DNA from: the human T2T-CHM13v2.0 reference genome, Homo sapiens | Length of the DNA stretch: 64,000 nucleotides | Direction: 5' to 3' (one strand) | Assembly: GCF_009914755.1 (NCBI RefSeq) | Contig: NC_060935.1 | Shown here: positions 26,616 through 48,003 of the stretch, in pieces | How positions within the stretch are numbered: position 1 is the stretch's first letter | Layout of the letters: each line of letters begins with the position of its first letter | The notes under the pieces: generated by a model | The model's database searches: none | The model's input: only the letters and a program-made list of their open reading frames with translations | What the model was told of the DNA's origin: nothing | Made by a program: the position numbers and the translations under genes

Positions 26616-27495
26616 TAGTCTTAATTACTTTAAGACAGTGAAGAAAAAAATCCAAAATGTTAAAATGTATCTATGCCTATATCCATGTCTATATATTTAT
26701 TCATTTCCAGGTCTTAAATGCCTCTTCCTCAGTATTTTTGCTTTCAGCATTTCTTCTGTTATCTTATCATAAATATTATTTAAAATGTAGGTAGTATGTC
26801 ATTCCTAATTATTATATTTTATCATTTTTAGTGTCAGCATAGTCCAGGATCCAATGCTAACCTTGGCATTTCAGTGAATATGTGTATGTGTACATATGTA
26901 TTATTGTTATGGTCTTGTCACCCAACCATTATCTGATCAGTGTAATTGGCTAAGCCATAGAAGTAATAATAATAATAATGTCATTGGTCCTTAAAGTGGT
27001 TGGCTAAGACTTCTGTGGCTAGAACTACATCAGCAGGCTTAAAATGAGGCTTGCCTAAGGCTGCTTTTTAAATGTTAAACCGTTCTCATGCATGCTCTAT
27101 TTATGCAGTGATTTTGAACTTGATCATAGTATATGTAGAGTTGGAGAATGGGTTTAATTCCTTTTAGGCACTGTGTTTTTTTTGTCTGTTAAATGGAAAT
27201 GATAGTATTGACCTGTGAAAACCACACAAAAAAAATGTAAGCAGTTACTTCTGAGAATAAAAGAGACTTTAATGCTGAATACTATTTTTAATTATTTTAA
27301 GCAGTTTTTATAATCAAGTAAATAGACTGTGTATAACCAAAACTTATTGAAAAATGTAAATTAGAGAGGCTTATGGTGCTGTGTAAAGTAAACTGATTTC
27401 CTGGTTTTTCTTGTAAGATCCACTTTTAGAATTTTAAATTTTTTATTCTAATGATTTTCTTGCACTAAGCATTTGATTACTTTGCTTTAATTTAG

Positions 27496-27581
27496 GCATG
27501 GAAGTATTTTGAACCGAGAGTCACCAACAGATAAGAAGCAGAAAGTTGAGCGCATTGCATCACATGATTTTGACCCCACAG
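27496..27581 (+). CDS. ARHGEF12: ARHGEF12 exon 3, 86 nt, HGSILNRESPTDKKQKVERIASHDFDPT
   Basis: tttag|GCATGG...CCCACAG|gtaaaa; phase 2 to 1. Confidence 0.96.
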
Positions 27582-29151
27582 GTAAAACACTATTCATTCT
27601 TTCAAAGAGTATTGAGAGTAGTGAAGTTCAGAATAATAGAGCTTAAGCTACCCGAAACACTCAGGAATAGTTGTTTGATCTGTTTTAGGACTCTCACATT
27701 CCTCCAATTATATCATAATAAAGCCTTTGCATTTAGTAGGAATGCAAGCATTTTTAACTTCCAACACTGTACATTCCACTACAGAAGTATCATTGTAGAG
27801 TATATTGTATCTTTAAATAGTGATAATAATAGAAATGGTTATATAATAATTGGAGATTTGGTCAGATCAAGAACTCAGTGTTAAGTTGAATCATGGTATA
27901 AGCAGTAATATGTCATAAAACCAAGGCTCTAACAACTCGACACTTGCGTAGTCATCTAAAAATTCAATTGTGATTATGGTGAATTGGAGTTTTAGATAAA
28001 TCAGTTTCACAAATTAATGATGGTCTCATTTTAGAGTAAACAAATGAATAGAAATCCCTTTCTCTTCAGTCAAAAAGTATTCTGAACTTAAAGAGCTGTC
28101 TTTCAACCTAAGCAGTGTCGATCTTTCCTAGGGTTGTCACCTTAACAGACTTTCAGATTGATCTCCTTTTAAAACATCTAGGCTTTTTCCTTTTGCTTTC
28201 TCCTTGTAAGCTTACTCCATATTTGATTCATAGAAAGTGCTTGGTAATCTTGCTTTTTTCATTTGAAACTGATATATATTTTTTGTGCACATACTATTTT
28301 ATTCAGTTGCCTGTCCCTTTGACAAGAGACGAAGTAAATCCCGCTATCTCAGATACATAAAAATAATGTATCTATTTTTAGGTATTTTTACTTAGAAATA
28401 TAATTTTAAATATTTAATAGAGAATAGTATGTTTTATTTATCTAAGACATTTCATACTTTATTAGTATAAACTCCTTTATTTTGAAAAAATATTATAAAT
28501 ATTATCTAGGAAGCACATAGATAATCATTTTCTGCATTTTGGGTAGTAGGTAAAATGAAATTCCAATCATCAATTTAGGAGGCTTTGGTGGTGGGACTAT
28601 GTATTATGTCACTTACAGATCTCCATGAAGAGAGAATTTTCCATTCTGATGCCTAATTTTGTAGTCATGGGGCTCAGAGGCTTTCATTTACATGATTAGG
28701 TATTGTCTTGCCAATAAGGTCAAAAGTTTCTGCCCTATGTTCAGAAAAATATAATCTTGTTAGGTTTATTTTGTATCTACATCTGTGCTGTGCCCATCTC
28801 CAAAGACAGATTTAAGCAAAGATGTATACAATGCTTCATAATGAGATCATTATAGCTTTTAGTGCTTTTGTCATCTCTACAATTATCAGGTGATATATTT
28901 TGTATACTATTCATGTGTTGTTTTGTTTGAACATATTTTTATTGCACTGTCTTTTCTTCGATAAATCTTTAAAATATGTCATTACCTGTGCTGTTTGTGA
29001 CTATTCTAAGTGCTGTCATCTGTTATGTTCATACTTTGTGTTTGCACGATTTAACTTGATCATGATTCATTCTTTTTTCCCCATGAATTTTTCCCCTTAC
29101 ATTGTCTCCATATTTTCTATATCTCTCTCCTTTTCTCCCGCTCTTGTGCAG

Positions 29152-29208
29152 ATAGCTCCTCCAAGAAGACAAAGTCTAGTTCAGAGGAGAGTAGATCCGA
29201 GATATATG
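29152..29208 (+). CDS. ARHGEF12: ARHGEF12 exon 4, 57 nt, (D)SSSKKTKSSSEESRSEIY(G); symmetric cassette exon
   Basis: long polypyrimidine tract, tgcag|ATAGC...ATATG|gtaagc; phase 1-1. Confidence 0.95.
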
Positions 29209-29736
29209 GTAAGCTAATGTAGCTAATTCAGCCTTGCCCTTTGGAGCTTGCTTCATGGTGTTCCTTTTCTGTTCTTTTTTTCCTTTCTTTCTTTCTTTTT
29301 AAATAACTGCAGCCTTTCTTGTGTCTGCTGTGCATGGCATGATCTACTGCAGGGAAAGGGAGCCTGGGGTTTTAACGTGGCTGTGATGTGGAAGCTTAAG
29401 GTTGCTAGAAACTAACATTGTAGATTAAGAGTAGGCCACATTGCCCATCTTCTCCCGTCTTGTTTATGGTAGGAAGGTGATTATCTCTAATATGTTTGGG
29501 TCAGGTTCCTCCAAATAACATGAATGGGCTTTGAATTCTTGTCATCTTCTTCCCACATCTCATTTGCAGAGTTTGGATTATGAAGAATTTGAGGAATTAA
29601 GTCTTTTCCTCTAAGTATAATACTGGTGTAATTTAGACGTATTAGCAGTTCTTTGGAATTTTTATTTCATTTTTTGTTTGTTTATTTTTAATTGCCTCGT
29701 CATGTGGAAAAGTCATTCTTGTATAATTTATCCACG

Positions 29737-29749
29737 ATGGCAAAAATAC
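29737..29749 (+). CDS. Candidate alternative start exon, MAKI(R), in frame with exon 5
   Basis: CCACG ATG GCA AAA ATA C|gtaagt; strong Kozak, phase 1. Confidence 0.55.
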
Positions 29750-31339
29750 GTAAGTATTTTATCTTCATAGCTTGAAGAATTTGTGCCTTTGAGAAGTTTC
29801 TCTGAAGCTTAATCGGAATGGGAAAATTTCAGAATGGTACCTTTTAAATAATCTTAACAAAGAGCAAGTTTAACCTGAGTGGTCAACTTTTGCAGCAGAT
29901 GATTGAAATGCTAATATTTCTAGACTGTGTCCTGTCTTCCAAAGATACAATAACCATGTTTGTGAAGTTCATACCTATTTTTCCTTTTCCTTTGCAGTTT
30001 TATTTGCCCTCTTTCCTTCTTTTGGAGTCTGATTAGGGTTTTGTTTTGGGGTTTTTTTTTTTTTGGTTTTTTGTTTTTTGAGAAAAGTGAATAAGAGAGG
30101 AATTACCTGGAGCTAAGATTTTAAAAATAATTTCTGAAAGACTGATAAATTATTTCTTTTTTTAGGAAGATTCCAAATTTGGCCTCGAAGGGAAATCAGG
30201 TCATCTTTAATAGAGCCACAAATCTATAGAGCAGAAGCTCCCCCAGGTGCAGATAGATGTTTCCTAGCTTGATATATAGGAGAGGAAAAAATACAGGAAT
30301 TGCCCTCCCCTTTTTAAGACATTTGATAATTCACATCTGCTGGCACTTGAGCCCATATCAGATACTTTTTAGTATTATGAAAGCTCAGTGTTTGGTTCTA
30401 AACCAGTTAATTCTTCTATGTTAGATATATACACATAGTTCTTTACTTGGGTTTTTGTGACCAGTGCTTTTTCTGTGTATACCTTTTACAGTAGTTCAGC
30501 AGTAAATGTATACTGTGCCTTGTGACACATCAAGTTTACGCTTTTTCTTCCTTCCAGAGTATTTTGGCTACTGATAAGTAAGAACTACCTAATTCCTGGA
30601 GACTATATTTCTGTTCTATATAAAGAGCTTTCTATAGTTTATCCTCTCCTTAGGAACATGAACATTATCTTTATAGCTCTATTCTTTTTCGGTAGCCTTT
30701 GCAGTGTTCTATTTCGTCTTCCTCTCCATTTTCCTAGATCTGCGATGTGTATTTAGAAGCTTGTTGTATGCTTTGGATGAAGACTAACAATTTAGGAACC
30801 TCTGACTAGAAATACTATACTAATATTTTTCTTAGCAGTGATAGAAACATTAATACTAGTTCAGGCATGCCATTGGCTTGGTAGTGATAGAAACATTTTA
30901 AGTGGTAATTGGGAAGTAAGGTGTGGCTTCTCTGTGTGTTTGTTTTTTGAGAACCCTTGAAATACCTTTTTTGGAAGGAACTGAGTCCACAAGTCCTCAA
31001 AAAGCACTCATCGGAGGGATGAGTTGATTAGAACAGAATTAGCATGCTAACGTAAATCTCTTTGACATTACAAATATTTTATCACCTGTGTGAATAGACG
31101 TCTTTAGATTACGTACAGTTAGCATAGATGAAAAAGTCTCTCTGGGGATTCAGAAAAGCTTGAAACTACTGAGTAGAATCATAGCAACTGGTGACATTCT
31201 GCTTTAGTGTAGGGTCTTATTATAAGCCCACTTCAAACTTTAGAGATTATACATTGCTTTCTCGGGGTAAAATTCATTAGCTGAGTACTTAACAAAAATG
31301 CTAGTTACTCACATATTATTTATTTTAAACTTTCTTGGC

Positions 31340-31703
31340 TTTTTTTTTTTTTTTTTTTTTTTTTTGAGACAAGATCTCGCTGTGTGGCCCAGGATGGAGT
31401 ATAATGGCGGGATCATGACTCACTGCAGCCTCAACCTCCTGGGCTCAAGTGATCCTCCTACCTAAGACTCCAAAGTAGCTGGGACTACAGGTGCACACCA
31501 CTGCACCCAGCTGTTTTGTTTGTTTGTTTGTTTTTTTAATAGAGATGAGGTTGTTGAAGGAATGATTTGCCAGGGGAAAAAAAAAAAAGAAAGAAATAGT
31601 AGAGACAAAGTCTCGCCATGTTGCCCAGGCTGATCTCTGTCTCCTGAGCTCAAGCAGTCCTCCCAAAATGCTGGGATTAAAGGCATAAGCCACCGCACCT
31701 GGC
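31340..31703 (-). mobile_element. AluJ with an internal non-Alu insertion
   Basis: antisense Alu arms separated by an extra ~50 nt ending in + strand polyA. Confidence 0.85.
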
Positions 31704-32083
31704 TTCTTAGCCATTTTTAGAGCTACTTTGTGAACTAGATTTACTTTGTGCATCTTAAAAGGAAACCAAGTGTTTGCTTTGTATTGACTTTTTTTGTTAC
31801 ATTTCTGCCCAGTGCGGTCAGTTGGTTATTTATTCCATTTCCCCTTATTTGTCCCTTTCTACCTGTTAGAGTCTATTAAACGTGTATGGATGCGTTTTCT
31901 GATCTACAATTTTAATAATACTTAATTTTATTAATACTTTTGTGGGTTACTGTAGGAAATGAGAGATTCAGCAAGGGAATTCTGAGTTAGACCATAGCTG
32001 CTGCTTAACCGCTGTCATGGTGTCTGAACAGATTCCTGCTAACAGTATTTGGTTCAAGAAAATAAGTTATGTCTTTTTAAAGC

Positions 32084-32290
32084 TGTCTTAGTGTGTTCAG
32101 GCCACTGTAACAAAATACCATAGACTGCTTGGTTTAAGCAATAGAAACTTATTTTCTCACAGTTCTGGAGGTTAGAAGATCAAGATCAGGATGTCAGTGT
32201 GATCAGGTCAGAAGATTCCCTTGCTGGCTTGCAGATGGCTGCCTTCTTGCTGTTTGTCTCACATGGCCTTTCCTCCGTGTTTGCCAATGC
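32084..32290. mobile_element. MLT1-type MaLR LTR fragment
   Basis: tgtcttagt...tgtaacaaaataccatagactg...ctcacagttctggagg. Confidence 0.75.
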
Positions 32291-35200
32291 CCTTTCTTTA
32301 GTTTCTATGATATTACATCAACCTGGTTCTTTATTCTTTGTAATTATTTTGTCTCTCTTTATTTGATTGTTTTTTCCCTCCTGTTTTATACATGTAGGCA
32401 TGACCCAAGTTTCTGTCCCCAATCTTTCTTCCAGTCTCCAGTCTAAGTGTCCCATAAATTCAGAGTGACCAAACTGGAGTTCATCATTGTTCTCTACAGC
32501 TGGAAATCAGTCTTCCTCTTTATTTCCCTAATTCTTATAATGACACTGTCATTTTTCCACTCACCTAGTCTTATATTTCCTTAAAGTTATATTTGACTTC
32601 TCCATTTTCCGTCGTCCCCTGTGGTCAGCTATTTGCCAGGTCCCCTTGATTCTACCATCACAATATTTTTCATCCTTCACTCTTTGGTTTCAACCCCACT
32701 GCCTTGTCCATCATTTTATTAGACTATTATAATAGATTCGTAACTTACTTTTATTTCAGTTTCACATTGATTCATTAACTTTTCTCCATTCTATATTCTG
32801 CCTTGACTTGTCAGATTAATATTACTAAAGTAAGAATTTGGTCATTCACTTGCTAAGAAAGTACAGGTAGTTATTAAGATAATGCCACAATTTGTTTCCA
32901 ATTTATTCTACTCTGATTCTCCTTCAGCGTTTCATTTTCCAAAACATGTTTTGGCATTCTTCCTTTGCACATGCCATTTCTGTTGTCTTGAGTGAATTAC
33001 CACCTATAACTTAGAATCCTACTCATCTTTCAAGGCTTAATTCAAGTACTGCCTTTTCCTAGGATTGCCCAGCTACTTTTGTTGTTTCTGAATGTTGACA
33101 TCTGTTTTGTATTTAATTACTTATATTTATGTTTATCTTTACATCTCCCATAATGCTGAACATATTGGAGACACTCATTAAGTGAGTTTTGAATGAATGA
33201 TTGTTGAGATTGACATAGGAAGTATTTTAGTAGAGAAAATTGATGGAATAAGATCTTCACTCATCCTAATTGAATCTTTCTTTCCTTCTGAAAAACTTGA
33301 AGATAGAAGAAAATGTAACTTGGAGACATTTTTCTGGTAGTGGTCTGAAAGAATGAAATCAGCATACTTGGAATTTAAGGCTCTTCTTGCTGGCAAGACT
33401 GTGCATTTAGAATCAAGAAGCTTCTTAATCAAAGGATTATCTGAGGTCTTACTCATAAAACATGTATGTCTGGCACCAGTTTAAAATGAGCTGTTTTTAT
33501 GAGGTTGCACATGGCCCTTCTCCACTCCCTTCCCTGAAGCTGATTCTTAAGAGCTGAAACCTAGAGAAGTTTGGTCATGAAATAAAATAAAAGGTGAAGA
33601 AAGACTAATGTGCTTTCACTAAAGTCAATGTAATATGGAAGATTTAACAGGTTATCTTACATGTTTAACACTCCATTTTCATTAATATGCCCCACACCCT
33701 ATTTTCATTATAGGAGTTATGGCCTTCTTTCAGGAACAGTTATAGAATGACACTTCATTTTTTTTTCACTTTCAAAATATGATCATTGGTAATTATCTAT
33801 TGAGTAAGAAGGAAGCAGTCTTTTTATGTTGGTTTTAAGTGCCACATTGTAATAACAGAAAAAATATGTCTTTTGTTATGATAAGGAAATAAAAGAAATG
33901 GATAGTATTTATGTAAATTTGATATAACATCTTTACTTCACTGATGAGATGAAGCATGATATCAGGTTTATCAGCTTCTAGGCAAAATATGATTTTTAAG
34001 AGACAGGAAATAAAGTTTGTTTTGTAACTAGAGGAGTTATTTTGGGGTAGATGGAAAAATCAAATTATTATAGTTGGAATTTTGCCAGGGCAGAAGGTTA
34101 ATTAGCGTTCTTATAGAAATGTTCCTCTACTTTGCATAGTCTTCAAGGCTGTGATTTTTTTTCTAATTAGAAAATGTTTGAGTATTTTATTTAAAATTTC
34201 CTTTGTGTATAAAATTCAAATTTATTTAATAACTATTTAGTGAGCACCCATTACATGCCAGGCACTATACTAAGGCATAGAGATACAAAGATATAAGTGA
34301 CTCTACCTACTTTCTGGTTGTTCACAGTCTGGTACAAAAGAATTGCAATACATTTTGATAAGTGCAGTGATAGAGATATGCACTCATTTACCATTACTCT
34401 ATATGCACTTAAAAAAACAGCTGTGAAGAAATACTCATATGGCACCAAGAACAATGGGACGGAAGAAGTATTACTAGGACTAAGTCTTTTGTTTTTTTGA
34501 AAAACGTGTTTATTATTACTGTTATTTTTTGTAGAGAAGAGGTCTTGCTAAGTTGCCCAGGCTGTGCTCAAACTCCTGGCCTCAACCAGTCCTCTTGCCT
34601 TGGCCTCCCAAAACGTTGGGATTACAGGTGTGATCCACGGTGCCTGCCTGTTAGGATTACGTTTGAAGGAAGTTTAACTTTTTATACCAGTCTCACTGGT
34701 TTTACTTTTTGAACACTCTGCCTGTGTCTATGCAAAGTGCTGGCATATAGCACATATCAAAGTAATTAGGTGGCCTTACAGAACTCATATTCACAGATAG
34801 ATACATTTGTATGGAAGTTATGATTAATAATCTTTATACCAGATGATAAAGGATTTAGCAACAAAACAAAACCATGGACTATATGAGTTGTAGAAATCAG
34901 AAAAAGTAAAAGTGATGAAAGCTGGTTTTTGGGTTTTTTTTTAATTAATGAAATTTGAAGATTGCTATTTTGGAGTTATGAGTCTACTTTTATCTTTGGC
35001 TTTCTCTGTAACATACAGGGCCTATTTTCTGTACCATTTTCTGATTCTTAAACATTGTCATTTTTTTCTCCATTTGTTTTCAGTATTGTCCTGCCAGGAT
35101 TTTATGTTCTTTGAGAACAGAAACTCCAAGTAGTCTTGGGTTCTTCACAGCACCTATGAACTGCAGTGTTAAATAACTAGTATGGACAGATGCTCAATGC

Positions 35201-36416
35201 AAATTTGCTAAAACAAACAAAAGAAGTAGGATTTTTGTGTGTGTATGTCAAAAAGGATAGTACAAAGATATGATAATGTAGCCAGTATTGGTGATTTTAG
35301 TTCTACAGAGGGTGGAATTTTTCCCTCTGTGGTAGGTTAAAACAGCTTCTGGTCAACAAATAGAATATTTCTCTGAAGAAAAAGGGAAAACATTTCATTT
35401 GATTTTGAATGAGAGGGAACATAATAGATTTGAGCATTTGAAGGACTGGATTTCTGAATTTTGAATGGTAGGATGGCTTCGTTTTCAGTTAATTATTACC
35501 ACAGATCTAAATTTATGCAGACACCACAGATAGACAGGACAGAATAGTATTGTTAATTTGAATTTTATAGATTCTGAATTGACTGTATGTGTAACACTTT
35601 TTATATTGGTCTACTGATTTAAAGTACATGTTAAAGTACATCAATCTCACATTAGCAGGTAAATATAAAATAATAAATGTGGCTAATACAGTGGATTTGG
35701 GGAGAAGAAAAAATTGAATAGGATGTGTGCATAGTTCTTTTTCCTTTTCCTCTTTATTCTTTGTCCCTCATCTCCTTTTGCTGTAGAATTAAGAGGGAAG
35801 GTTATCAGACTGAGACTGTTATGAATTGGAGATAAGAGATTTGCTGTATTCTGAAGTAATACTAATAGGTTTTCTTGATTCTTATTAATCTGTTAGGATT
35901 CTAGGCATATTTATAAAATTGACTGTGCATGGTGCTGTTTTTTTCTCTCCGATGACCTCCCTTTCTGAGCTTCCTTTCATCTCTAGACTTGTCTACTTGT
36001 CTGAATTTCATTAATTCATAAGCAATTTTTTTAAGTTTCCTTCTGTCCCAGAATACATGCAAGGTTCTGAGATAAGATTGTGATGAAGATACAGCCCCTG
36101 CACCTTTGGAGCATAAAATCCAATGAAAGAATAAAAACAAATACAAATCAGTGTGAGTAAGGGTGATACAGTAGGAGTACACAGAGGGTGCAGTGGGAGT
36201 CTGTAAGAGGGGCACCTAACTTCAGTATGCATATTTAGGAAAAGCTTGTAAGAAGACTGATTCTTTTCTTAAGGACGTCCAGCTGTCTCTCATCTTCTAA
36301 AGCTGCCTATAACAAGAAGCTCTGCCCTTTTAAATTTCCCTTCTGTCTTCCTTACCCATCCAAAACTACTTTCCTTGTTTGCTAAAAAACAAAACTTAGA
36401 CATAAATCATAATTGA

Positions 36417-36682
<266 letters not shown>

Positions 36683-37264
36683 GAATTGATTCTCTTAAGG
36701 ATCATTTGCATTAATTGATAGGAGTTTATTAACATAAAAGTACTTACAATTGTACTAGTAGCATGGATAGAGGAGAAAATCCAAGGTCAACCTCCCCTTA
36801 ATCATAATAAAATAATATTTAACGTGTAGGAACCCTTAATATTTGTTAGACATTAAGCTAACTACTTTATATATTTTTTTATTCAAGTGAGAGGTGCAAA
36901 CATAGCAAACTCCTTGACTCCAAATACCCGTTTCCCTCATGTTTTACAGGTGTCCTGTTCTCTGCAGGCATCTGAAAAAAGGTCTATTTAAGAAGCCCAG
37001 GTTGCTTAGCACTGCAGTCACCCATATTAGAAACCTTTAATTCATTAATTTTCAGCTTTTGTGAGGTGAGGTGGGAGAATGGAGAAGCACGAATATAGTA
37101 TGAAAAAACGTATTCAGTGTTATAATTGCCTTGATTTCTAAAGTCACAGTATCTAATTTATTTTGAAATTTCAAATAACTATAAGGGAGGTTGTGAAATA
37201 TTTGTTTCCAAAAGCAAGCATGGATTTTAAAAGGTTCCTGTAAAATGCTGCTTAGTCTAATAAT

Positions 37265-37553
<289 letters not shown>

Positions 37554-37809
37554 AGAATCTCTGATTCTATTTATTATATGCTAGAATTTATAAAGAATGC
37601 TTTTTTTAAACTTGATTTATATATTCATATCCTATTTTATAGGTGTCCTAATTACTTGAAGGAAGTAACACTGAACAGATAACAAAGGTTGAATTCTAAT
37701 GTGTTATCACCTGACCTCATTACAATTTATTGTTTTGTGAGAGTGGTGAATATGTTATTTAGTATTTAGAAGTCTCTAGAATTTAGGGGTAACACATTTT
37801 TAAATGTTG

Positions 37810-39330
37810 AAAATCAACTTTATTGAGGTAAAATTTACATAAAATAAGATGCACTAATTGTAAGTGTATGGTTAGAAAATTTTGACAAATGACTATGCAT
37901 ACTCATGTAAACATTATCTTAAGAAACAGAACATTTCCATCACTGCAGAAAGTTCCTTCATTTCATTTTGCAGTCATTCCCACTCCTCTTCCGTGCTTCT
38001 CCCCTAGGCAGTTGCTATTCTGCTTTTTGTTGTTTTAGTTTAGTTTTTCCTTTTCTATGTTGGAGTCATGTAGTGTTTACTTTCTTACATACTGGTTTCT
38101 TTTGCTTACCATGATGTTTTTATGTTTCATCCATGTTTGTTGTATGAGTAGTCCTTTTCTTCCTTCCTAATACATTGTATGGACATACGACAGTTTGTTT
38201 ATCCATTCATCCGTTGATAGACATTTGAGTTTCTAGTTTTGGGCTCTTATGAATAAAACTGCTGTGAACATTTGTGTATGTCTTTCTGTGGACACAAATT
38301 GTTCTTTCTCTTCAGAGTAAAATTAATGGATCATATGCAAATATATGCTTACCTTTATAAGAAATTTCCAAACAGTTTTCCAGAATGTTAGCACATTCCC
38401 ACCAGCAATGTTATAATGTTCTAAGAGTTCTAGTTGCTCCACCTCTTTGCTACCACTGTTTATGATTAGCCAGACTAGTTGGTGTATAGTGGTATCTCAT
38501 TGTGGTTTTAATTTGTATTTTCCTGACGACTGCAGCTGTTAAGCACCTTTACATGTGCTTATTGGCCATTGGTCTATCTTTGTAATGTGTTTATTTAAGT
38601 ATTTTGCCCCCTTTAACATTTGTCTTCCATTATTGGCTGGAGAGTTGCATATAATCTGGATACAAATTCTTTATCAGATATCCATATTGTGAATATTTTC
38701 TCTGTGGTTTGCCTTTTCATTTTCTTTTTCTTTTTCTTTCTTTTTTTTTGTGACAGAGTCTCGCTCTGTCGCCCAGGCTGGACCCGCCTCCCAGGTTGGA
38801 CCCGCCTCCCAGGTTCACGCCATTCTTCTGCCTCAGCCTCCCGAGTAGCTGGGACTACAGGCACCCGCCACCACGTTCGGCTAATTTTTTTGTATTTTTA
38901 GTAGAGACAGGGTTTCACTGTGTTAGCCAGGATGGTCTCGATCTCCTGACCTCATGATCCGCCCTTCTCGGCCTCCCAAAGTGCTGCGATTACAGGCCCG
39001 GCCTGCCTTTTCATTTTCTTACCAGTGTCTTTAGAAGAGCAAATGTTTTAAATTTTTGTCCAGTTTCCTAGGTTTTTTTTCTTTTATGGTTTATAAACCC
39101 ACCCTAAGGTCTTTTTTTAATGTTATAAAATATTTTGTTACATGTATTTTATCTGTTTTCTTTTTCTTTCTTTCTTCCTTTTTTGTTTTTTTAATACCCT
39201 AAGGTCTTGACGATTTCCTTTTGTGTTATCTTATGAAAAATTTTAGCTTATGTTTAGGCCCATGATCTGCTTTAATTTTTGTGTAGGTCATGAGTTCAAG
39301 GGTTAAGGTTCATGTTAAGCTACAGTAGGC
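37810..39330 (-). mobile_element. L1M 3' fragment hosting an AluY
   Basis: antisense L1 motifs (cattcccaccagcaatgt, gtggtatctcattgtggtttta). Confidence 0.8.
38727..39003 (-). mobile_element. Internally rearranged AluY with 17-bp TSD
   Basis: TSD TGCCTTTTCATTTTCTT at 38710-38726 and 39004-39020. Confidence 0.92.
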
Positions 39331-40510
39331 TCATGTACTCATGATGTGTCATTATCAGCAAAAATAGATATGTATATACACTGTGTGTATATATATATAA
39401 TTTGTTATATGTATATGTTTTCTATGAGCCATTGTACACACAGTCTATATATATTTTTTATTAACATATCTTTAGCATATCGTTTGGTTGGTAAATCAGA
39501 CTTATATTTAAAAGATTGTGGCTTTTTGTATAAAAATCTTTAGAAAAAGTTTTTATTTTCTATTCATTATCTTTGTGTTGTTTTACCTGTTTTATATATT
39601 GACTTCGGTGAAATGCTTAGATCCTGCAAAGCTGAAAATATATGTTGTCTCTGGCTAACACAGAGTTCAAGATCTTCAGATCTGGTCTATGATAAAACAG
39701 CCCTGGGTACTAATCAGGGTTCTACCCTGGCAGGACATTTCTATTCCTCTGGCTGGGGCCCTCTTTCTCTCACCTTGCCCTGACAGTTTTCATTTGCTGT
39801 TTAGAAGAAACACAAATTCTCCCTTAGGAATCAGGTAAGTATATGAAAGAGATGAAGGAACTGGTTGAGCTCACAGATTCTTTATCTTTTCTATTTTTTT
39901 CTCTTTTCTGTTTCTGTTTTCTATAAGCCAGGGTTTTTCTTCCCCCTGAACTCTTCCTTTCTCTTCCCTTCTTTGGGGAATAACTTCAGGTACTCTGTAA
40001 GCACCTCCTTTCTTTTTACTGTTTTCCTGAGTATATTTTCTTGAGAGTGAGACTGGATTTCTGCAGAATTTTCCTTGAGATGCTCCTAGCCCCATGTCCT
40101 AAGATGGTTGATTTTTCTTGGGTTAAACACCAATTAGGGTACCAAAAACTCAGGGCAGTGGGGCAGGGGGAGAATTTTTTTACTACAGAGAAATAGCATG
40201 GATGTGAATGGGCTTTCCTTCTAGCTGTCTCATGTCTAATACTTAATATTTTGCAGTTTGCCATAGCTGTTTTTAATATTGGAGCAATTCTATTATACTC
40301 CGCCAGTGAGAAAACAGTATGTGTGACTCTGTGGTGTTCTTGTGTTTGCTTTGTTGATGGTGGTTAGTGTTCTTATTTTACCATGTGGATTTACATGTGC
40401 TACTTTTTGTTTCTCCAGATGGAACACAGTTTATTACTAATATATAATTATTGTCTTTTCCTTTCTCTGTTTTCTCTTCCTTCTTGTTTTACACTGTGGT
40501 TCTTGTGCAG

Positions 40511-40609
40511 GTCTTGTTCAGCGTTGCGTAATCATCCAGAAAGATGACAATGGATTTGGGCTGACGGTCAGTGGAGACAATCCAGTCTTCGTACAGTCTG
40601 TCAAAGAAG
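40511..40609 (+). CDS. ARHGEF12: ARHGEF12 exon 5, 99 nt, PDZ start LVQRCVIIQKDDNGFGLTVSGDNPVFVQSVKE
   Basis: tgcag|GTCTTG...AAAGAAG|gcaagg (GC donor); PDZ GFG loop. Confidence 0.96.
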
Positions 40610-41103
40610 GCAAGGCATTTTAAAAAACAATTTATCACTCAGTAAACAGAGTAAGAATAGAAAAGCTTAAATAATGGCAATTGCCAAGAATAGAATAATT
40701 ACATAGATTGCAGGTCATGTGGACTATTGTGCTAGATTCGTCTATCATGTCATAGTTACAGGAAGGAGTTTACTCCAGTTGATTTTTTTTTGTACTTGTT
40801 AGAAAGAAATCAGTTTTTATTTAGTTTTAGAAATCATGTGACTCCTTGGTCATGATACTTTATTGTCCACACAAAAGTTTCTGAAATTTCAGTTTTCCAT
40901 GGCACCACTGATATTTTGGCAAAGACAGATTAAAGAGATAGCTATGGCTTCAGAAATACCATTTATTTTCCCAAAACAACAGTGATAATATTTTCTACTG
41001 CTGTTACCATATATTGAATACTTCCTTTATGTTGGGTGCTATAATTTTGAGGTAGACAATTTTTTTATCCCCATTTTATAGGTGATATTGAGGCTTAGAG
41101 TAA

Positions 41104-47824: not shown

Positions 47825-48003
47825 CTGGTTCCTATGTAGCTCTCACTGTTCAGGGACGCCCACCTGGGTCGCCCCAGATTCCACTTGCCGACTCTGAAGT
47901 AGAGCCGTCAGTCATTGGACATATGTCTCCCATCATGACATCTCCTCATTCACCTGGAGCATCTGGGAATATGGAGAGAATCACTAGTCCTGTGCTCATG
48001 GGG
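47825..48003 (+). CDS. ARHGEF12: ARHGEF12 exon 8, 179 nt, (S)GSYVALTVQGRPPGSP...TSPVLMG
   Basis: C-rich tract, caag|CTGGTT...ATGGGG|gtaaga; overlaps ORF 47773..48030. Confidence 0.96.

What the first reader, a model, noticed from the sequence alone, without database searches (positions are those of the whole stretch)
29570..29755. Hidden start exon MAKIR fused directly to the PDZ domain; possibly a stop-and-restart cassette
Seen: CCACG-ATG-G (A at -3, G at +4) ATG GCA AAA ATA C|gtaagt, after an in-frame TAA at 29689. Phase 1 matches exon 5, giving MAKIR-LVQRCVIIQKDDNGFG. An upstream acceptor (catttgcag|, 29570) would define a 180-nt exon with TGA at 29581 in the upstream frame. As an internal exon it ends the upstream ORF and supplies a new optimal start in the same frame. 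An out-of-frame ATG at 29702 overlaps it. Inference: an isoform lacking about 66 N-terminal residues but keeping an intact PDZ.
Basis: partly seen in the sequence, partly recalled or inferred. Interest (0 to 1): 0.8.

Follow-up and report, generated by a model that had tools for sequence, protein, structure and literature searches.

The report
Unlisted alternative start exon in ARHGEF12
A short stretch inside an intron of the human ARHGEF12 (LARG) gene carries every signal needed to start a slightly shorter protein, and database gene models from six macaque and baboon relatives start their protein with exactly these five residues, but nothing here shows that human cells use it.

Summary
ATG 29737 has A at -3 and G at +4. 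The exon ends ...ATAC|GTAAGT at 29749/29750 in phase 1, so splicing to exon 5 (40511) reads MAKIR-LVQRCVIIQKDDNGFG. There is an AG acceptor at 29570, a TGA at 29581 in the upstream frame and an in-frame TAA at 29689.

These signals alone do not exceed chance. The strict combination arises in 7.6% of shuffles of this one intron. The window holds 122 acceptor/donor pairs that score at least as well, and only 4 are annotated exons.

The new evidence is comparative. Seven database proteins of 1482 aa begin exactly MAKIRLVQRCV. They come from Macaca (4 species), Papio and Theropithecus. Five have NCBI-style isoform names and two have UniProt-style accessions.

So this is the intact human counterpart of an exon that monkey annotations use. 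The hub's RefSeq table lists no human exon there, and I found no human protein with this start. The product would keep the PDZ domain and lose the published nuclear import signal at residues 29-35.

The stop-and-restart idea has no support. The upstream ORF would be 70 codons, and an out-of-frame ATG at 29702 lies in the way. This is a modest annotation-level finding.

The parts
29540..29569 (+). Pyrimidine-rich tract and AG of the candidate acceptor (TGTCATCTTCTTCCCACATCTCATTTGCAG)
   Evidence: Read. Weight-matrix score 8.0; 137 of 4140 AG sites in the window score as high.
29570..29749 (+). Candidate 180-nt exon if used as a cassette. If it is a first exon, its 5' end is unknown.
   Evidence: Composition is intron-like: GC 28% and T 44%, against GC 37-54% and T 15-34% in the 14 annotated exons. 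It is unique in the T2T genome.
29581..29583 (+). TGA that ends the canonical reading frame if the exon follows exon 4 (...SEIY-EFGL-stop, a 70-codon ORF)
   Evidence: translation of the exon-included join, frame 1.
29580..29600 (+). Upstream ATG with a 6-codon ORF (MKNLRN-stop); the ATG overlaps the TGA at 29581
29689..29691 (+). In-frame TAA 48 nt upstream of the ATG; it bounds the MAKIR frame on the 5' side
29702..29749 (+). Out-of-frame upstream ATG (GTCATGT). Its 22-codon ORF runs over the MAKIR ATG and ends in exon 5 at 40529-40531.
29737..29749 (+). ATG GCA AAA ATA C: start codon in context ACGATGG, plus 4 1/3 codons (MAKI + first base of R)
   Evidence: The same five residues head seven monkey proteins.
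29750..29755 (+). Donor GTAAGT (exon side TAC)
   Evidence: Weight-matrix score 5.5, lowered by C at -1; 205 of 3783 GT sites score as high.
40511..40609 (+). Exon 5 of ARHGEF12 (start of the PDZ domain), the proposed splice target in phase 1
   Evidence: hub annotation.
29152..29208 (+). Exon 4 (57-nt cassette), the upstream neighbour, ending in phase 1
   Evidence: hub annotation. 51 of 238 anchored proteins lack it.

Best explanation
The stretch is the intact human counterpart of a minor alternative exon of ARHGEF12 in intron 4. Gene models in papionin monkeys use that exon to begin a 1482-aa protein. Any transcript that uses donor 29750 and splices to exon 5 has ATG 29737 at the head of its only long ORF.

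The product would be LARG with residues 1-67 replaced by MAKIR. It would keep the PDZ, RGS-like, DH and PH domains and lose the N-terminal nuclear import signal.

In human the exon is most likely used rarely. My committed reading is a low-inclusion cassette (29570-29749) after exon 4. That cassette stops the normal frame at 29581 and makes the mRNA a target for nonsense-mediated decay, and the MAKIR coding sequence in the monkey models is then a longest-ORF call. I put this at about 55% if the exon is used at all. The other architecture is a first exon from a weak intronic start site, translated by ordinary scanning (about 45%).

Shown here: the signals in the human sequence and the monkey proteins. 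Inferred: use in human, the exon architecture, and the loss of nuclear import.
For: - All signals are present and the frame is open into exon 5 and beyond.
- 7 of the 120 proteins listed from 562 hits start MAKIRLVQRCVVIQ and are 1482 aa long. That length equals 1544 - 67 + 5.
- A search scored on residues 1-40 alone puts the same 7 on top with 100% coverage. The other 113 listed cover 88% (1210 hits).
- The 7 come from Macaca mulatta, M. fascicularis (two entries), M. thibetana, M. nemestrina, Papio anubis and Theropithecus gelada.
- Their source names are of two kinds: NCBI 'isoform X' names, and UniProt accessions A0A5F8ARW5 and A0A8D.... From recall, the latter usually come from Ensembl gene builds, which would mean two pipelines.
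- The PDZ domain is intact in P0046: residues 13-83, profile positions 4-81 of 81.
- The solved LARG PDZ construct (2OMJ/2OS6) begins at G-LVQRC, which is the exon 5 boundary.
- The nuclear import signal 29-PTDKKQK-35 is reported in the discussion of PMC12799961, which cites Grabocka & Wedegaertner 2007 (passages read). It is encoded in exon 27496-27581 and would be absent.
- For the cassette reading, the acceptor at 29570 scores in the top 3.3% of AG sites, and the stop at 29581 lies 166 nt before the exon's 3' junction. That is beyond the roughly 50-nt rule for nonsense-mediated decay (established knowledge).
Against: - The hub's human RefSeq table lists 19 transcripts and none has this exon.
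- No human, ape, colobine or New World monkey protein with this start is among the 287 proteins held.
- No protein derived from assembled reads (sources lgn, ena, jgi) carries it.
- The exon has intron-like composition.
- The window has no CpG island, and the two TATA-like words (29616, 29722) are badly placed for a start site upstream of the ATG.
- Equal or better decoy exons abound: 122 pairs, 4 annotated.
- The six monkey species are close kin, and the models may share evidence or owe their first exon to ab initio extension. They are not six independent observations.
- I could not see the monkey mRNA models, so the exon architecture is unknown.
Confidence: 0.55

Rival explanations
1. Chance pseudoexon that is silent in human. 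Ordinary intron sequence happens to hold a good ATG next to a GTAAGT in the right phase. The monkey models then reflect a papionin-specific gain, or a choice made by the annotation pipeline.
For: - The strict combination arises in 7.6% of shuffles of this intron alone.
- 122 equal-or-better acceptor/donor pairs exist in the window, of which 4 are annotated.
- Composition is intron-like: GC 28%, T 44%.
- The hub's human RefSeq table does not list it.
- The start is seen only in one monkey tribe among the proteins listed.
- The literature is silent.
Against: - Identical MAKIR start in 7 proteins from 6 species, with two kinds of source name.
- The human sequence keeps the ATG, its context, the open frame and the donor.
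- Human RefSeq is curated and also lacks another start that monkey models carry (26718-26765), so absence from it is weak evidence.
Confidence: 0.35
2. Alternative first exon with its own intronic promoter. It would give an N-terminally truncated LARG without the import signal by ordinary scanning, as a regulated and perhaps tissue-restricted isoform.
For: - Good start context, ACGATGG.
- The monkey models are coded as proteins.
- A strong acceptor within 30-300 nt upstream is expected by chance in about 44% of cases (my calculation from 137 sites per 64 kb), so the acceptor does not exclude a first exon.
Against: - No CpG island anywhere in the window, and no well-placed TATA or initiator pair.
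- The hub lists RefSeq enhancers elsewhere but no functional element here.
- Unless transcription starts within 35 nt of the ATG, the out-of-frame ATG at 29702 would be met first.
Confidence: 0.25
3. Stop-and-restart cassette. The exon is included after exon 4, ribosomes terminate at TGA 29581, and they reinitiate at ATG 29737. One mRNA would then yield a 70-residue peptide and PDZ-first LARG.
For: The geometry exists: the exon is 180 nt, the stop at 29581 and the ATG at 29737 share the exon and the frame, and they are 153 nt apart.
Against: - The upstream ORF is 70 codons. From established knowledge (not tested here), reinitiation in mammals falls off sharply after ORFs longer than about 30 codons unless a special element is present.
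- The first ATG after the stop is 29702, with a purine at -3. It is out of frame and overlaps the MAKIR ATG.
- The exon RNA shows no unusual structure: z = -1.35, and 20 of 200 shuffles fold as well.
- No Rfam match in 28500-31000.
- Such an mRNA meets the rule for nonsense-mediated decay.
Confidence: 0.03

Closest known systems
Predicted 1482-aa ARHGEF12 isoforms of papionin monkeys (P0046, P0048, P0049, P0050, P0055, P0062, P0064)
   Same: Identical first five residues (MAKIR) joined at the same point to LVQRC of the PDZ domain. The length is exactly what the human splice would give.
   Different: They are monkey models and I did not see their mRNA structure. They have V where human has I in CV(V/I)IQ. 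No human counterpart is in the hub's RefSeq table or among the proteins listed.
1441-aa ARHGEF12 forms starting MRAGVQTGD (seen in Chlorocebus, Cercocebus, Macaca, Papio, Theropithecus, Mesocricetus; from recall, human RefSeq isoform 3 is of this type)
   Same: N-terminally shortened LARG produced when the 5' exons differ and a downstream ATG is used.
   Different: That start lies inside the PDZ domain, and the precomputed Pfam lists for these proteins lack PDZ. The MAKIR form keeps PDZ whole.
Poison (NMD-inducing) cassette exons, such as SCN1A exon 20N (abstract of PMC11981616 seen in the listing)
   Same: An intronic exon with usable splice sites that puts an in-frame stop far upstream of the last junction.
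   Different: No inclusion, regulation or deep conservation has been shown for this exon.
ARHGEF12 exon 4, the 57-nt cassette 360 nt upstream (29152-29208)
   Same: Alternative splicing in the same N-terminal region before the PDZ domain. 51 of 238 anchored proteins lack it.
   Different: It is annotated, in frame and coding. A review table lists it as NOVA2-regulated in mouse (PMC12221596, passage read).

Membership tests
Alternative 5' coding exon giving an N-terminal proteoform | ATG in frame and open through the donor into the downstream constitutive exon | tested here: met
   MAKIR-LVQRC..., with no stop through the 11 downstream exons of the window.
Alternative 5' coding exon giving an N-terminal proteoform | The donor is actually spliced to exon 5 in transcripts | not testable with these tools
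   No transcript data for human. Indirect support comes only from 7 monkey protein models with the junction.
Alternative 5' coding exon giving an N-terminal proteoform | Own transcription start or promoter upstream of the ATG | tested here: inconclusive
   No CpG island in the window. TATA-like words sit at 29616 and 29722 and initiator-like words at 29662 and 29667, with non-canonical spacing. CAGE data are not available.
Poison (NMD) cassette exon | AG acceptor and GT donor bounding an exon of ordinary size | tested here: met
   180 nt; acceptor score 8.0 and donor score 5.5, within the range of the 14 annotated exons (2.95-11.4 and 2.2-11.9).
Poison (NMD) cassette exon | In-frame stop more than about 50 nt upstream of a downstream exon junction | tested here: met
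   TGA 29581-29583 lies 166 nt before the junction at 29749.
Poison (NMD) cassette exon | Inclusion is seen and rises when NMD is blocked | not testable with these tools
   No expression data. Literature searches on ARHGEF12 with 'poison exon', 'cryptic exon' and 'nonsense-mediated' gave nothing on this exon.
Termination-reinitiation (stop-restart) unit | Short upstream ORF or a dedicated reinitiation element | tested here: not met
   The upstream ORF would be 70 codons. No unusual RNA structure and no Rfam family.
Termination-reinitiation (stop-restart) unit | No competing ATG between the stop and the restart codon | tested here: not met
   ATG 29702 is out of frame and overlaps ATG 29737.
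Chance intronic pseudoexon | Signals no better than the many unused decoys, and intron-like composition | tested here: met
   122 equal-or-better pairs, 4 annotated; GC 28% and T 44%; 7.6% of shuffles.
Chance intronic pseudoexon | Never used in any annotated transcript of any species | tested here: not met
   Seven monkey protein models start in it.

The most novel reading that the evidence does not exclude
In human the 180-nt exon is a regulated switch on transcripts from the normal promoter. Its inclusion ends the normal frame after 70 codons, and ribosomes restart at ATG 29737. One promoter would then yield either full-length LARG or a PDZ-first form that lacks the nuclear import signal.
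Probability: 0.03. Interest if true: 0.7.

Novelty: new member of a known kind. Interest (0 to 1): 0.3.

Why it matters
If human cells use it, ARHGEF12 would have an unlisted isoform. That isoform keeps the PDZ domain, which binds plexin-B and other receptors. It loses the first 67 residues, which hold the published nuclear import signal and the NOVA2-regulated exon 4. This could change where the RhoA activator sits in the cell.

If the exon is instead a cassette, it would be a way to lower LARG output through nonsense-mediated decay, and intronic variants nearby could matter for splicing. Either way it is a small correction to human annotation, prompted by the monkey models, and not a new principle.

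The unique N-terminal tryptic pieces (M)AK, IR and LVQR are too short for shotgun proteomics to detect (inference), so the isoform could have gone unseen at the protein level.

Tried and rejected
I used the 59-aa exon 47827-48003 of the window instead.
- Literature, from listings and passages only, gave nothing on this exon:
  - ARHGEF12 with 'alternative first exon': 0 papers.
  - With 'poison exon': 0 papers.
  - With 'cryptic exon': 4 papers, 3 listed.
  - With 'alternative promoter': 5 papers.
  - With 'nonsense-mediated' and 'exon inclusion': 3 papers.
  - The peptide MAKIRLVQ: 0 papers.
  - Two broad any-two-terms searches returned papers without ARHGEF12 and were useless.
- The Spliformer-V2 preprint names a spinal-cord-specific ARHGEF12 exon but gives no coordinates in its text. 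Its figure and supplements could not be seen. A review table points to exon 4 as the known neural cassette, so that lead is probably exon 4, but this is unresolved.
- A retrocopy that might preserve the junction: none. Exon 5 and the candidate exon each hit only themselves in the T2T genome.
- Rfam on 28500-31000: no match at E up to 1.
- RNA fold of 29570-29760: z = -1.35.
- ORFs on both strands of 29300-30000: only two, of 35 and 45 aa, neither overlapping the exon.
- I considered and rejected the human 89-aa UniParc hit P0171 as a MAKIR form. It is the tagged PDZ construct of PDB entries 2OMJ/2OS6.
- Conservation in other mammals could not be tested, because no non-human vertebrate DNA is reachable with these tools.

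Full report
**What is in the sequence.**

- ATG 29737-29739 sits in the context TCCACGATGG, with A at -3 and G at +4.
- Thirteen bases later the sequence reads ...ATAC|GTAAGT, with the donor at 29750.
- The 13 bases leave phase 1, which is the phase in which exon 5 (40511-40609) is entered.
- Joining 29749 to 40511 in silico gives MAKIR-LVQRCVIIQKDDNGFGLTVSGDNP..., open through every downstream exon of the window.
- Upstream there is an in-frame TAA at 29689 and an acceptor-like site, TCTTCTTCCCACATCTCATTTGCAG|AG, whose first exon base is 29570. This defines a 180-nt exon.
- If that exon followed exon 4 (29152-29208), the normal frame would read ...SEIY-EFGL and stop at TGA 29581. That is a 70-codon ORF.
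- Two further ATGs lie in the exon. One at 29580 opens a 6-codon ORF and overlaps the TGA. One at 29702 (GTCATGT) opens a 22-codon ORF that runs over the MAKIR ATG and ends in exon 5.

**Is it more than chance?** On its own signals, no.

- The strict combination was purine at -3, G at +4, open frame, GTAAGT and phase 1. It occurs once in intron 4 and twice in the window.
- In 500 dinucleotide-preserving shuffles of intron 4 the mean count was 0.082, and 7.6% of shuffles had at least one. The window is more than five times longer than the intron.
- I scored splice sites with a weight matrix built from recalled human frequencies, so the scores are approximate. The acceptor scores 8.0, which would rank ninth among the 14 annotated exons plus this one. 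137 of 4140 AG sites score as high.
- The donor scores 5.5, twelfth of 15. It is penalised for C at -1 despite the perfect GTAAGT. 205 of 3783 GT sites score as high.
- 122 acceptor/donor pairs 30-300 nt apart score at least as well on both sites, and only 4 of them are annotated exons.
- The exon is intron-like in composition: GC 28% and T 44%, against GC 37-54% and T 15-34% in the annotated exons.
- There is no CpG-island-like stretch anywhere in the window. The two TATA-like words (29616, 29722) are not placed to give a start site shortly upstream of the ATG.
- The 180 nt and the 501 nt around them are unique in the T2T genome.
- No Rfam family matches in 28500-31000.
- The exon RNA does not fold unusually well: z = -1.35, and 20 of 200 shuffles fold as well.
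- No sizeable ORF overlaps it on either strand.

**The evidence that changes the picture.** The protein database of the search for homologous proteins turned out to hold vertebrate proteins.

- I searched with the 59-aa exon 47827-48003 and asked for longer proteins. This gave 562 hits, of which 120 were listed.
- Seven of those 120 begin MAKIRLVQRCVVIQKDDNGFG and are 1482 aa long. That length is exactly 1544 - 67 + 5.
- A second search was scored only on residues 1-40 of one of them (P0046). It ranked the same seven on top with 100% coverage, and the other 113 listed covered 88%, that is, without MAKIR (1210 hits).
- A third search among shorter proteins found none with this start (147 hits, 120 listed). 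The one human hit with 98% coverage, P0171, is the tagged PDZ construct of PDB entries 2OMJ/2OS6.
- Among all 287 proteins held, 238 carry the LVQRC anchor. In 86 it is preceded by the commonest canonical ending ...ESRSEIYG, with close variants in others. In 51 it is preceded by the exon-4-skipped ...SHDFDPTG. In 7 it is preceded by MAKIR. The rest are single odd or read-through forms.
- The seven come from Macaca mulatta, M. fascicularis (two entries), M. thibetana, M. nemestrina, Papio anubis and Theropithecus gelada.
- Five carry NCBI 'isoform X' names and two carry UniProt accessions. From recall, such accessions usually derive from Ensembl gene builds.

**What that does and does not show.**

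It also shows that the human sequence keeps every element of that isoform's first coding exon.
- It does not show use in human. The hub's RefSeq table (19 transcripts) has no exon here.
- No human, ape, colobine or New World monkey protein among those listed has this start.
- None of the read-assembly-derived proteins (sources lgn, ena, jgi) carries it, although about twenty macaque-type full-length forms from such sources are listed.
- There are four caveats:
  - The database is clustered at 90% identity, so a human copy or fragment could be hidden as a cluster member.
  - Only 120 rows are listed per search.
  - The six species are close kin and their models may share evidence.
  - I could not see the mRNA models, so an ab initio first exon in some of them cannot be excluded.
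- Human RefSeq also lacks another start that macaque models carry. MPLPQCFCFQHFFCYL maps to 26718-26765 with 15 of 16 residues identical. Absence from the human table is therefore weak evidence.
- Conservation of 19 bases between human and Old World monkeys is expected by descent alone and says nothing about selection (inference).

**How it most likely works.** Any transcript that uses donor 29750 has ATG 29737 at the head of its only long ORF, so an annotation pipeline will call MAKIR as the start whichever way the exon is reached. Two architectures fit.

- As a cassette after exon 4, it stops the frame at 29581, 166 nt before the next junction. That marks the mRNA for nonsense-mediated decay under the established 50-nt rule.
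- The strong acceptor at 29570 mildly favours the cassette reading. Such an acceptor within 30-300 nt is expected by chance in about 44% of cases (my calculation).
- As a first exon, it needs an intronic start site, for which I see no sequence support. Unless that site lies within 35 nt of the ATG, the out-of-frame ATG at 29702 is met first.
- I commit to a low-inclusion cassette as the more likely architecture (about 55:45), and to rare use in human.
- The restart idea fails two defining features. The upstream ORF is 70 codons, well beyond the short ORFs that permit reinitiation in mammals (established knowledge, not tested here). A competing ATG also overlaps the restart codon.

**What the protein would be.**

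- Pfam finds PDZ at residues 13-83 of P0046 (profile positions 4-81 of 81), together with the RGS-like, RhoGEF and PH domains.
- The solved PDZ construct starts at the exon 5 boundary, so the domain should fold.
- The missing 67 residues include 29-PTDKKQK-35. The discussion of PMC12799961, citing Grabocka and Wedegaertner 2007, gives this as the nuclear import signal of LARG (passages read).
- The missing residues also include exon 4, which a review table lists as a NOVA2-regulated cassette in mouse (PMC12221596; passage read).
- Loss of nuclear import is therefore a reasonable but untested prediction.
- By contrast, the 1441-aa forms that start MRAGVQ begin inside the PDZ domain, and PDZ is absent from their precomputed domain lists.

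**Literature.**

- Nothing in the searchable library describes this exon or peptide.
- The Spliformer-V2 preprint mentions a spinal-cord-specific ARHGEF12 exon without coordinates. Its figure and supplements were not visible. It is probably exon 4, but that is open.

**Verdict.** The start-exon reading is partly supported through monkey annotation. The stop-and-restart reading is not supported. This is a new member of a known kind, namely an unlisted alternative 5' exon or poison exon. It has modest interest, and public transcript data that I could not reach would decide it.

Noticed in passing
window 40610-40615: The donor of exon 5 is GC rather than GT (AAG|GCAAGG), so intron 5 of ARHGEF12 is a GC-AG intron.
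   Followed up: no
window 26718-26765: A macaque alternative protein start (MPLPQCFCFQHFFCYL..., P0072 and P0089) maps here with 15 of 16 residues identical, in the intron before exon 27496-27581. The hub's human table lists no exon here.
   Followed up: partly
window 31963-31992 and 34423-34470: A tamarin model (P0203, Saguinus oedipus, 136 aa) inserts about 33 residues between exon 4 and exon 5. Pieces of the insert map weakly to these two places in human intron 4: 8 of 10 residues at E 6.1, and 13 of 16 at E 8e-5. This is probably an ab initio model.
   Followed up: partly
window 29152-29208: Exon 4 (57 nt, 19 aa) is skipped in 51 of 238 anchored vertebrate proteins. A review table lists it as NOVA2-regulated in mouse. 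It is the likely identity of the 'spinal-cord-specific ARHGEF12 exon' in a 2026 preprint.
   Followed up: partly
window 29580-29583: ATGA overlap: the ATG at 29580 shares two bases with the TGA that would end the upstream frame. This looks like a stop-start overlap, but it opens only a 6-codon ORF.
   Followed up: yes
P0226 (Sciurus carolinensis, 533 aa): A squirrel protein named POU2F3, with POU and homeobox domains, matched the LARG PDZ start. This is probably a fused gene model across the neighbouring POU2F3 and ARHGEF12 genes.
   Followed up: no
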